Assembly (NCBI RefSeq): GCF_009931435.1
Contig: NZ_CP043414.1
Direction: 5' to 3' (one strand)
Origin: Escherichia coli
Lineage (GTDB): Bacteria; Pseudomonadota; Gammaproteobacteria; Enterobacterales; Enterobacteriaceae
DNA: 64,000 nucleotides
This document shows positions 12,529 through 15,500 of this stretch, piece by piece (position 1 is the first letter of the stretch; every line of letters begins with the position of its first letter). The position numbers are program-made.

Positions 12529-15500
12529 TGAGATGGAAAAAGAGCAGCTGATTGAAATAGCCAATACGATAATGCCGTTTGGCAAATACAAAGGGCGTCG
12601 CTTAATCGACCTGCCGGAGGAGTATCTTCTGTGGTTTGCCCGCAAAGATGAGTTCCCGGCAGGGAAGCTCGGTGAGCTAATGCAAATCACGCTGCTGATT
12701 AAAACCGAGGGGCTGACGCAACTGGTCCAGCCCCTGAAACGCCCACTTTAAGCTTTATCGGCGCTGCTTTCCTGCTGCGCCTGTAACTGTTCGGTCTGGC
12801 GTTTGTATCGACGCGCCAGCACCGCACAGACCATCAATTGGATCTGATGGAAAATCATCAGAGGCAGCACCATCATACCGATCACCGATGTGGGGAACAG
12901 AATGTTTGCCATCGGGATGCCATTTGCCAGACTCTTTTTCGAACCACAAAAGACGATAGTAATTTCATCTGCCTTATTGAAGCCCAGTCGGCGTGCCATA
13001 AAGACGTTAACTACAATCACGATAGCCAGAAGAACGCAGCTAACCACCACGATAAATAGCAATGATCCCCAGCCAACTTTATGCCAGATGCCGTTAACGA
13101 CGGCTTCGCTGAACGCAGTATAAACCACCAACAGAATGGACGTCTGGTCAGTTTTCGCAATCCATTTTTTATTTCGTGACACCCAGTTGCCAATCCAAGG
13201 GCGAGAAAGATGTCCCAGCACAAACGGCAGCAGCAGTTGCAGCATTATCTTACCTACCTGCTCAAGGCTGCCCCCTGCACCGTGAACATTCATCACCAGG
13301 CCAACCAGCAACGGTGAAAGGAAAATCCCCAGTAGGCTGGATGCTGACGCAGAACAAACCGCCGCCGCGACGTTACCGCCCGCCATTGACGTGAAGGCGA
13401 TTGCAGACTGCACGGTCGCGGGGAGAATGCACAAGTAGAGAAAACCGGAGTAGAGCATCGGGTCGACATTTACCGGTTTCCACCAGGCAAACAGCACGCC
13501 CAGAATTGGAAACAGCACGAAGGTGCTGCACATTACCCACAAATGCAGTCGCCAGTGACCACCGCCAGCAATAATCGCCTCACGCGACAACTTCGCGCCG
13601 TGCATAAAGAACAGCAGAGCAATAGCTGCGGTAGTCAGATTTTCAAAGAAGGGAACGAAATCGCCCCTGGCCGGAAAGAAAGAGGCCAGCAACACCACCG
13701 TGATCAGGGTTAAGGTGAAAGGATCGAGGATACGAAAAAGTTTCATAAAGACTCCAGATGAACGATGCTTTCATTGTGCGTTCTTCTGATTGATAAATAA
13801 AACTGAATTGCTTAACAATTTGTGCGCGATAATGGAGAGTGAGTGGGGGCTCGCTTCGACTGGCGGGCTGAGTTGGGCAAGCAAATCCGAACGAATCAAA
13901 TAAGGGCGGTCAATGAGTGCGCTTGATGACCGCTGTAATATTATTGCTGACGACCGTAGCCGTTTTAGTGTTATCAACGCAGGCTTAGAACTGATATTTT
14001 ATTGAATAAATAATGCCATCCTGGAGGAAGGCTTCACCCAGTTTATTATCTGCGTAGCGATATTGAATCCCTGCCGTAAAATGCGGTGTCGCATTCCACC
14101 AAAACGCTACTGCTCCGTTTATACCTTCTTTTCCGCCATTACCTGCTGCATATGTAGCGTCGCGGTCAAATTCGTATTCATTCCAGTTAGTCAGGCTGAA
14201 TTTTTCGCTACCAAGCGTGAAACTGTATCCGGCAACCCAGCCCAAAACATAGCCATTGTCACCGGTATAATAGGTTTGATCGGTGTAACGTTTCGCGAAG
14301 AATGGCTTAAACCAGTAACCATTTCCCGTAAAATTGTATCCAAGCCCGTAAAGGAATGTATCATCATAGAAGTTAACACGTTCAGGTGAACCGTAAGTCC
14401 CGTAAGCGTGAAGATAAAGATTCAGTCCTGTATCACCAAGATAAATGCGGTTGGTACTTTTAAAAGTATAACGTTGTTCACTGCCAGATTTTGAATGTCG
14501 GCCATTATAGAAGTTCTCCCAATCGAAGAACCCGTACATTTCTCCCCAACTAAAGTTAGCACCACCTTCTAATTCCAGATAGCCAAAATCATCTTTATGG
14601 GACTTATTACTGGTTTTCTCTGTCGTGCGGGATGTCCAGTCAAGATAATGCAGACCAATGTCAGCAAAGCCCCCTTTAAACTCGGCATAAGACATTTGCG
14701 GAAAAGCCATGGGAACCAGACCAAGGCTTAATGCAAGAAGCTGTTTTTTCATAGTATGTTCCACTTAAGTAATAAATTTAATGAATGTGATATGCTTACA
14801 TATTTATGCTGTAATTATTTGGCATGTCTATTTTATTAGATTTATGACAGCTCTAACCAATACATAATTATCACGTAATGATAGGGTGTCGATCTGAATG
14901 TCTTCAGGATTGATATCAAATTGCAATTGATATCCGTGGTAAAAAGTATTGGTAAATGTGATGAATTTCCGGTTATTTAAAGGGGGCTCAAAGTCGAAGG
15001 AGAAGATGGTGAATCTAAAACTACAATTAAAAGTACTTTCATTTCTGCAATTCTTTTTGTGGGGAAGTTGGCTCAATACATTCGGTTCCTATATGTTTAT
15101 CACGCTGCGTTTTAAAGGCGAGGATATTGGTGCAGTCTATAGTACCTTGGGTATTGCAGCATTAATAACATCAACGTTATTTGGTATCGTGGCCGATAAA
15201 TGGATTAGTGCTAAATGGATATATGCCGCTTGTCATTTATTTGGCGCGATAACATTATTTGTCGCTGCATCGGTTACCACGCCTTCGGCAATGTTCATTG
15301 TCATTTTACTTAACTCTCTCGTGTATATGCCAACGCTCGGTTTGAGTAATACAATTTCCTATTACCGCATACAAACTGCGGGGATGGATATTGTGACAGA
15401 ATTTCCACCAATCCGTATTTGGGGCACGATTGGATTTATTGTCGCGATGTGGGCGGTGAGTTTGGCAGGTTTTGAATTAAGTCATATGCAATTGTATATC

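What the first reader, a model, noticed from the sequence alone, without database searches (positions are those of the whole stretch)
14907..14935. Candidate operator palindrome upstream of the accessory permease
An ~29-bp imperfect palindrome (ggattgatatcaaattgcaattgatatcc) lies ~70 bp upstream of the permease start in the divergent yfeN/permease intergenic region. Its size and dyad symmetry fit a dimeric repressor or activator site, but no regulator gene is encoded within the module, so control may come from a regulator encoded elsewhere (XapR is a nearby candidate, CytR another).
Basis: seen in the sequence. Interest (0 to 1): 0.35.

Follow-up and report, generated by a model that had tools for sequence, protein, structure and literature searches.

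The report
XapR activator site before nucleoside permease
The flagged "palindrome" is very probably the upstream half of a two-part binding site for XapR, the xanthosine-responsive activator encoded 4.7 kb downstream, which would put a rare accessory nucleoside permease and enzyme operon under the same control as the neighbouring xanthosine genes; this is an ordinary kind of site at a target not reported before.

Summary
Its real symmetry is an 8+8 inverted repeat with a 7-nt spacer, which is also a 9-nt direct repeat. That is only marginally above chance: 8.5% of local shuffles contain one.

It matters because it matches a motif conserved in xapA promoters. Aligning those promoters from about 40 Enterobacterales species gives a gap-free footprint: ATYRATA-N9-TATYRAT, N9, AAA-NN-GTATTGGT, N20, TATAA. 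This is a LysR-type recognition site, a second site overlapping the -35, and a -10.

The region upstream of the permease fits with identical spacing:
- ATTGATA-N9-AATTGAT, 14909-14931
- AAAAAGTATTGGT, 14941-14953
- TATTTA, 14974-14979

A matrix built only from non-Escherichia xapA promoters scores xapA's own promoter 46 bits and this site 27.6 bits. The next best of 128,000 window positions scores -11, and 0 of 5000 local shuffles reach 27.6.

The motif occurs only where a true XapR ortholog is present. It also precedes the same permease + deoxyribosyltransferase-like module in Citrobacter and two metagenomic contexts. No CRP sites flank it, so CytR is not supported.

Verdict: a new XapR regulon member of a known kind. 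Binding has not been tested experimentally.

The parts
14909..14931 (+). Recognition-binding site (RBS) of a XapR-type LysR regulator: ATTGATA-N9-AATTGAT, containing T-N11-A (T14914...A14926). Its centre, 14920, is about -66 from the predicted start.
   Evidence: Aligns without gaps to ATYRATA-N9-TATYRAT of xapA promoters. With an RBS-only matrix it is the top hit in the window on both strands, 21.6 and 17.6 bits. 8 of 9 high-information RBS columns match; the mismatch is 14925 T>A.
14941..14953 (+). Promoter-proximal activation site (ABS), AAAAAGTATTGGT, partly overlapping the -35 position.
   Evidence: All 11 high-information columns match AAA-NN-GTATTGGT, at the same 9-nt distance from the RBS as in xapA promoters. 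Literature: one XapR site partially overlaps the -35 of the xapAB promoter (PMC7205307).
14974..14979 (+). Predicted weak -10 hexamer TATTTA, preceded by the conserved G at 14972. The predicted transcription start is near 14986 and has not been measured.
   Evidence: Lies 20 nt after ATTGGT, exactly as TATAAm does in xapA promoters. Two of the five conserved hexamer positions differ (14977-78).
14997..15002 (+). Shine-Dalgarno sequence AAGGAG, 6 nt before the GTG start at 15009.
   Evidence: Read directly from the sequence; RefSeq start.
15009..16262 (+). Accessory nucleoside:H+ symporter (NupG/XapB family), 61% aa identical to the XapB of the same window.
   Evidence: Pfam PF03825, E = 9e-166; BLASTP; RefSeq annotation 'nucleoside permease'.
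16317..17246 (+). 309-aa nucleoside 2-deoxyribosyltransferase-family protein, the second gene of the operon.
   Evidence: PF05014 over residues 41-106; weak match to PDB 7m5h; always follows the permease.
17259..17292 (+). Intrinsic terminator hairpin followed by CUUUUGG; it ends the permease-NDT transcription unit.
   Evidence: 15-pair stem; -21.4 kcal/mol, z = -6.2, 0 of 200 shuffles as stable.
17356..17426 (+). xapA promoter with its own XapR-type RBS (17356-17378), ABS (17388-17400) and -10 TATAAA (17421-17426).
   Evidence: Top full-matrix hit in the window, 46.1 bits; aligned.
19697..20581 (+). xapR, the LysR-family activator proposed to bind the site; 79% aa identical to K-12 XapR.
   Evidence: ORF; BLASTP against K-12 XapR; HTH_1 + LysR_substrate domains in the ortholog.
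13985..14752 (-). Divergent Tsx/YfeN-family outer-membrane nucleoside channel gene. It may have a mirror-image promoter: ATTGGT at 14861-14856 and TAAAAT at 14835-14830 on the minus strand.
   Evidence: PF03502; 86% aa identity to K-12 YfeN. The mirror promoter is only weakly supported: flexible-linker score 0.8, and it decays where the gene is lost.

Best explanation
Positions 14909-14931, the core of the flagged palindrome, are the high-affinity recognition site of a bipartite binding site for XapR, the LysR-type activator encoded at 19697-20581.

Together with a second site at 14941-14953 that partly overlaps the -35, and a weak -10 at 14974-14979, it forms a XapR-dependent promoter for a two-gene operon. 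The operon encodes a NupG/XapB-like permease and a deoxyribosyltransferase-family enzyme and ends at the hairpin at 17259-17292.

By analogy with the xapAB promoter and with LysR-type regulators in general, a XapR tetramer would occupy both sites. On binding xanthosine it would reposition on the proximal site so that RNA polymerase can start near 14986.

Shown here:
- the motif, its spacing and its statistical significance
- its conservation across alleles and genera
- its co-occurrence with xapR

Inferred, not shown:
- XapR binding
- the inducer
- the start site
- the direction of regulation
For: 1. xapA promoters of about 40 Enterobacterales species, anchored on ATTGGT, align without gaps to ATYRATA-N9-TATYRAT / N9 / AAA-NN-GTATTGGT / N20 / TATAAm. 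The permease upstream region fits with identical spacing.
2. A matrix trained on 23 non-Escherichia xapA promoters scores xapA 46.1 bits and the permease site 27.6 bits. The next best of about 128,000 window positions scores -11.3. The maximum over 40 whole-window shuffles is -2.2, and 0 of 5000 local shuffles reach 27.6 (maximum 8.7). 23 of 27 high-information columns match.
3. The motif scores at least 36 bits upstream of xapA in all 55 loci that have a XapR ortholog (at least 62% identity). It scores below 8 in all 25 loci whose xapA homolog has at most a 36-42% LysR relative nearby (one shows none). No other hit of 8 bits or more occurs in those loci, except upstream of yfeN-like genes and the module permease.
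4. The same bipartite motif precedes the permease of the module in LHM10-1-type E. coli (27.6), E. coli L011 (18.4), E. albertii (26.1), Citrobacter (38.3, not next to xap genes), L008 (10.8) and L095/96 (45.0). The surrounding sequence in these is unalignable.
5. Positions 14909-14953 are 45/45 identical between alleles whose flanking 100 nt are 70% identical.
6. The literature describes two XapR sites in the xapAB promoter, one partly overlapping the -35 and one further upstream. Deleting the upstream one nearly abolishes the xanthosine response (PMC7205307). This matches the two conserved blocks.
7. xapR is intact in the same island, and the first 60 residues, which carry the DNA-binding helix-turn-helix, are nearly identical to K-12 XapR.
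Against: - There is no experimental XapR footprint or transcription start site for this promoter. I could not read the primary XapR papers, so equating the conserved motif with XapR contacts rests on comparative evidence and a secondary description.
- The site scores lower than any true xapA promoter (27.6 against at least 36.8). It has a T>A change at a near-invariant position (14925) and a poor -10 (TATTTA).
- In E. albertii the right RBS arm and the ABS are further degraded (AATGGAT, AATATTGGT).
- Anchoring on ATTGGT pre-selected both the training and the test sequences, although the RBS-only score is independent of that anchor.
- I could not check whether the Citrobacter genomes that carry the module elsewhere also carry xapR.
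Confidence: 0.8

Rival explanations
1. The site is bound by a regulator other than XapR (another LysR-type protein or an unknown factor) that happens to share the xapA-promoter motif, or that co-regulates xapA and the module.
For: No direct XapR-DNA data could be read here. Another LysR protein, HusR/YnfL, is reported to bind the K-12 xapA-yfeN intergenic region (PMC12844172). In Citrobacter the module is not next to xapR, and a different LysR gene lies 2 kb upstream.
Against: Motif presence tracks the presence of a true XapR ortholog perfectly across 80 loci. The reported HusR motifs (for example GGGGAGAAATGTACGG) are unrelated to this site. The Citrobacter neighbour LysR protein is only 27% identical to XapR and is paired divergently with its own MFS gene.
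Confidence: 0.08
2. It is a CytR/CRP-type operator, as at nupG, tsx and other nucleoside genes: CytR binds the central TTGCAA between CRP sites and represses the promoter.
For: The gene is a nupG paralog (71% nt identity), and nupG and tsx are CytR targets (PMC3454398). The RBS spacer contains TTGCAA (14921-14926), one published form of the CytR core. A half CRP site, AAATGTGAT, lies at 14954-14962.
Against: No TGTGA-N6-TCACA match with 2 mismatches or fewer lies in 14765-15008. The TGTGA half site is TTTGA in the LHM10-1 and E. albertii alleles and CTTGA in E. coli L011, and it would sit between the -35 and -10. TTGCAA becomes TCGAAA in E. albertii and is absent from the Citrobacter, L008 and L095 sites. 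The defining tandem CRP sites are missing.
Confidence: 0.02
3. It is a chance or relic repeat in AT-rich intergenic DNA with no current function, for example a decaying copy of an ancestral xapA promoter.
For: As a palindrome it is not statistically unusual. The match is weaker than any bona fide xapA promoter and the -10 is poor. It is partly degraded in E. albertii.
Against: The 45/45 identity across diverged alleles contrasts with 70% identity just upstream. The bipartite motif is retained in at least four unalignable sequence contexts upstream of the same operon. The match is about 39 bits above the best background position in the window.
Confidence: 0.05
4. The near-symmetric site serves mainly, or also, the divergent Tsx/YfeN channel gene, acting as a shared bidirectional XapR site.
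For: The RBS scores even higher on the minus strand (21.6 bits). On the minus strand, ATTGGT (14861-14856), N20, TAAAAT (14835-14830) mirrors the XapR-type geometry, and it decays in genomes that lost the channel gene. In K-12, Pseudocitrobacter and others, yfeN has its own full XapR-type site back-to-back with xapA's.
Against: The minus-strand ATTGGT lies about 50 nt beyond the position expected if the shared RBS served it. It would instead need a separate, degenerate RBS (14899-14877), and the combined flexible-linker score is only 0.8 bits. The permease-side elements stay conserved in genomes lacking the channel gene. This reading does not exclude the main one.
Confidence: 0.05

Closest known systems
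XapR sites of the E. coli K-12 xapAB promoter
   Same: Same block order and identical spacing: RBS dyad, N9, AAA-NN-GTATTGGT, N20, -10. There is a cognate xapR gene in the same locus. Both control a nucleoside transporter and a nucleoside-cleaving enzyme.
   Different: The target operon differs (a NupG-like permease and an NDT-family enzyme instead of xapA-xapB). The match is weaker (27.6 against 46-77 bits), with one near-invariant RBS position changed and a TATTTA -10. Binding is untested here.
General LysR-type regulator RBS/ABS promoter architecture (for example BenM/CatM, CbnR, OccR; from general knowledge of the family)
   Same: A T-N11-A dyad centred near -65, a second weaker site near -35 to -45, and a poor -35/-10 that depends on the activator.
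   Different: In many LysR systems the regulator gene is divergent from the target and autoregulated from the same region. Here xapR is co-directional, 4.7 kb downstream, and reported to be constitutive (PMC7205307).
CytR-CRP nucleoprotein operators of nupG, tsx, deoC, udp
   Same: Control of nucleoside uptake and catabolism genes. A TTGCAA core is present.
   Different: There are no flanking CRP sites, TTGCAA is not conserved, and the site lies upstream of the -35 rather than between CRP sites.

Membership tests
XapR (LysR-type) bipartite activator site | Dyad recognition site containing T-N11-A that matches the consensus of xapA-promoter upstream sites (ATYRATA-N9-TATYRAT) | tested here: met
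   ATTGATA-N9-AATTGAT at 14909-14931, with T14914-N11-A14926. 13 of 14 arm positions fit. It is the top RBS-matrix hit in the window.
XapR (LysR-type) bipartite activator site | Second site overlapping the -35 at a fixed distance from the first | tested here: met
   AAAAAGTATTGGT at 14941-14953, 9 nt after the RBS as in all xapA promoters. 11 of 11 high-information columns match. The literature description agrees.
XapR (LysR-type) bipartite activator site | Sites centred near -65 and -40 relative to the transcription start | tested here: inconclusive
   The positions follow from alignment to the xapA -10 (TATTTA at 14974-79, predicted start about 14986). No start site has been measured, and the generic sigma-70 scan did not call this weak promoter.
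XapR (LysR-type) bipartite activator site | Cognate regulator gene present, and motif co-occurring with it across genomes | tested here: met
   xapR lies at 19697-20581. The motif is present in 55 of 55 loci with a XapR ortholog and absent in 25 of 25 without one.
XapR (LysR-type) bipartite activator site | XapR binds the DNA, and transcription is induced by xanthosine | not testable with these tools
   Needs EMSA or footprinting and reporter or RNA assays.
CytR/CRP operator | Two CRP sites flanking the CytR site | tested here: not met
   No TGTGA-N6-TCACA match with 2 mismatches or fewer in 14765-15008. The only half site is not conserved.
CytR/CRP operator | Conserved repeated CytR boxes (TGCAA-N2-3-TTGCA or GTTGCATT octamers; PMC3454398) | tested here: not met
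   There is a single TTGCAA at 14921-26, changed to TCGAAA in E. albertii and absent in other genera.
Simple dimeric repressor operator (palindrome overlapping the core promoter) | Conserved high-quality dyad overlapping the -35/-10 or the start site | tested here: not met
The 8+8 repeat is lost in E. albertii. The element lies upstream of the predicted -35.

The most novel reading that the evidence does not exclude
The permease + NDT-family enzyme pair is a portable add-on to the XapR regulon. It travels with its own XapR-dependent promoter to different chromosomal sites (next to xapABR in some Escherichia; next to adenine deaminase in Citrobacter; elsewhere in two metagenomic contexts) and relies on a resident XapR in trans. 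Together with a XapR-type site upstream of yfeN in K-12-like genomes, this would enlarge the textbook one-operon XapR regulon to an outer-membrane channel, a second inner-membrane permease and an uncharacterised nucleoside-cleaving enzyme. It would also point to xanthosine or a related (deoxy)nucleoside as the substrate of that 309-aa enzyme family.
Probability: 0.5. Interest if true: 0.45.

Novelty: new member of a known kind. Interest (0 to 1): 0.35.

Why it matters
XapR is usually described as a local regulator of the xapAB operon. The comparative motif derived here gives a sequence-level XapR box (ATYRATA-N9-TATYRAT, N9, AAA-NN-GTATTGGT). It predicts at least one further target operon in the 15 of 5426 complete E. 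coli genomes that carry the module, and probably also yfeN in K-12.

That gives a testable functional lead, xanthosine-induced expression, for an uncharacterised 309-aa deoxyribosyltransferase-family enzyme and its dedicated permease. It also gives an example of an accessory module keeping a specific activator site when it sits in other chromosomal contexts.

The mechanism itself, LysR-type activation, is conventional.

Tried and rejected
- Primary XapR papers (PMC177358, PMC93943) are not held. The Sort-Seq paper does not cover xapAB. The supplement of PMC7205307 gives no site sequences. Full-text searches for the K-12 site strings found nothing. Searches for yfeN + XapR and for NDT + xapA gave nothing relevant.
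- The generic sigma-70 scan did not call the proposed weak promoter. It found only two consensus-like sites further upstream, at chance frequency.
- CRP core search: no site in the intergenic region, and the window total is at chance level.
- RBS-only hits elsewhere in the window (48375; 50862/50890; 11-13 bits) have no adjacent ABS. By coordinate transfer from the IAI39 annotation they fall near yfdY and in the frc region, and I dismissed them as chance.
- Distant NDT homologs (45-56% identity; L091-L094, L097) sit in operons of other organisms (neighbouring genes suggest Firmicutes) next to DeoR, GntR or LacI-family regulator genes in four of the five. They have no XapR-type motif, so they say nothing about this site.
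- Rfam found nothing in the long leaders of the module in other genera.
- The LysR gene near the Citrobacter module is not XapR (27% identity).
- Direct homology between the permease promoter and the K-12 xapA or yfeN promoters was considered. blastn finds none; the resemblance is at motif level only.

Full report
**Locus.** The window is E. coli DNA of the IAI39/CE10 type, 99.7-100% identical to those genomes. Around the finding the gene order is:
- ligA, ypeB, yfeH (minus strand)
- a Tsx/YfeN-family outer-membrane channel gene (minus strand, 13985-14752)
- a NupG/XapB-family permease (15009-16262)
- a 309-aa nucleoside 2-deoxyribosyltransferase (NDT)-family gene (16317-17246)
- a strong terminator hairpin (17259-17292; -21.4 kcal/mol, z = -6.2)
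- xapA, xapB and xapR (19697-20581)

The segment 13810-20588 is a divergent allele of the K-12 yfeN-xapR segment. It is 72-77% identical in nucleotides, while the flanks are 96.6% and 98.4% identical. It lacks yfeR and contains the extra permease-NDT pair. Only 15 of 5426 complete E. coli genomes carry the pair: 7 at 99% or more, and 8 of a roughly 89% allele that has lost the channel gene.

**The observation.** The 29-nt string is present at 14907-14935, 74 nt before the GTG start. The tools find a perfect 8-nt inverted repeat, GATATCAA/TTGATATC, with a 7-nt spacer. The same bases form a 9-nt direct repeat, ATTGATATC, with period 17. This symmetry alone is weak evidence. There are 58 comparable inverted repeats in the window, and 8.5% of local dinucleotide shuffles contain one.

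**What it is.** Comparing the permease upstream region with the xapA promoter 2.4 kb downstream, and with the K-12 and E. albertii xapA promoters, showed shared blocks.

I fetched 80 xapA loci from species-representative genomes and anchored their upstream regions on a conserved ATTGGT. About 40 Enterobacterales species then align without gaps:
- ATYRATA-N9-TATYRAT, a T-N11-A dyad typical of a LysR-type recognition site
- 9 nt
- AAA-NN-GTATTGGT
- 20 nt
- TATAAm

This agrees with the published description of two XapR sites in the xapAB promoter. One partly overlaps the -35 and one lies further upstream, and deleting the upstream site nearly abolishes the xanthosine response (PMC7205307).

The permease region fits this pattern with identical spacing: ATTGATA-N9-AATTGAT (14909-14931), AAAAAGTATTGGT (14941-14953) and TATTTA (14974-14979). 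The predicted start is near 14986, which puts the dyad centre at about -66.

**Significance.** I built a position matrix from 23 non-redundant, non-Escherichia xapA promoters. Across both strands of the window it scores as follows:

| Position | Score (bits) |
|---|---|
| xapA promoter | 46.1 |
| Permease site | 27.6 |
| Next best of about 128,000 positions | -11.3 |

Forty whole-window dinucleotide shuffles gave a maximum of -2.2. None of 5000 shuffles of the local AT-rich region reached 27.6; their maximum was 8.7. The site matches 23 of 27 high-information columns. The mismatches are 14925, 14971 and two -10 positions. With the RBS part alone, which is independent of the ATTGGT anchor, the permease site is the best hit in the window on both strands.

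**Link to XapR.** Across the 80 loci the motif scores at least 36 bits upstream of xapA in all 55 that encode a XapR ortholog (at least 62% identity). It scores below 8 bits in all 25 (Yersinia, Hafnia, Massilia and others) where at most a 36-42% LysR relative is present. The only other hits of 8 bits or more in that roughly 0.68 Mb are upstream of yfeN-like genes and of the module permease. The window's XapR is 79% identical to K-12 XapR, and its first 60 residues, which carry the DNA-binding helix-turn-helix, are almost unchanged.

**Conservation.** In the LHM10-1 allele, positions 14909-14953 are 45/45 identical. Third codon positions of the permease are 90.9% identical and the 100 nt upstream are 70% identical. 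E. albertii keeps the left arm but weakens the right arm and the ABS, and still scores 26.1 bits.

The module also occurs elsewhere with otherwise unalignable upstream DNA, and always with the same bipartite motif upstream of the permease:
- Citrobacter, next to an adenine deaminase gene: 38.3 bits, with a leader of about 230 nt
- contig L008: 10.8 bits, with a one-nucleotide spacing change
- contigs L095/96: 45.0 bits, with a leader of about 335 nt

NDT homologs at 45-56% identity, from other organisms whose neighbouring genes suggest Firmicutes, sit in deoxynucleoside operons, four of five next to DeoR, GntR or LacI-family regulator genes, and lack the motif.

**Mechanism (inferred).** As for other LysR-type activators, XapR would bind the recognition site and the proximal site as a tetramer. 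With xanthosine bound, it would allow RNA polymerase to use the weak promoter. The result would be induction of permease-NDT in parallel with xapAB. The terminator after NDT and the separate xapA promoter indicate two transcription units.

**Rivals.**
- CytR/CRP is rejected. No CRP core with 2 mismatches or fewer lies in the intergenic region, the single TTGCAA is not conserved, and the half CRP site is not conserved either.
- A different regulator sharing the motif cannot be excluded without binding data, but the co-occurrence test argues against it.
- A non-functional relic is unlikely given the conservation pattern.
- A bidirectional role for the divergent channel gene is possible but only weakly supported.

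**Comparison and novelty.** The site works like, and meets the testable criteria of, a XapR-type LysR recognition/activation site pair. Binding and induction remain untested. No paper in the held library links this operon, or yfeN, to XapR. It is a new predicted member of a known kind of system.

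Noticed in passing
L010 (K-12) 5987-6064 (+), upstream of yfeN; also L013 3893(-), L025 1330(-), L035 3893(-): K-12 yfeN and yfeN-like channel genes in Pseudocitrobacter, an Escherichia sp. and a Citrobacter carry a second full XapR-type bipartite site (23-32 bits), back-to-back with the xapA site. This suggests yfeN is XapR-regulated. No paper in the held library reports this.
   Followed up: partly
window 13810-20588: The whole yfeN-to-xapR segment is a divergent (72-77% nt) allele relative to K-12, set between flanks 96.6% and 98.4% identical. This is consistent with xenologous replacement. The LysR gene yfeR, present in K-12 between yfeN and yfeH, is absent.
   Followed up: partly
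window 14899-14830, minus strand: A possible mirror-image promoter for the Tsx/YfeN gene: a degenerate dyad ATTCAGA-N9-TATCATT (14899-14877), then ATTGGT (14861-14856), N20, TAAAAT (14835-14830). The combined motif score is only 0.8 bits. ATTGGT and TAAAAT are mutated in genomes that lost the channel gene.
   Followed up: partly
window 16317-17246: The 309-aa 'nucleoside 2-deoxyribosyltransferase' matches the NDT domain only over about residues 41-118, and the rest has no Pfam or PDB match. Homologs at 45-55% identity sit in operons with PNP, DeoC, phosphopentomutase and Bmp-type ABC transporters. This points to an uncharacterised (deoxy)nucleoside catabolic enzyme family.
   Followed up: partly
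L003 3340-3577; L008 410-575; L095 360-696: In other genera the module's predicted XapR-type promoter lies 160-335 nt upstream of the permease start. The leaders of L003 and L008 share a TTTATTTAATCC..AAAA element just after the -10, and L095 has a diverged form (TCTATTTAGTC). There is no Rfam match and the function is unknown. In Escherichia the leader is only about 23 nt.
   Followed up: partly
window 17259-17292: A strong intrinsic terminator (15-bp stem, -21.4 kcal/mol) separates the NDT gene from the xapA promoter.
   Followed up: yes
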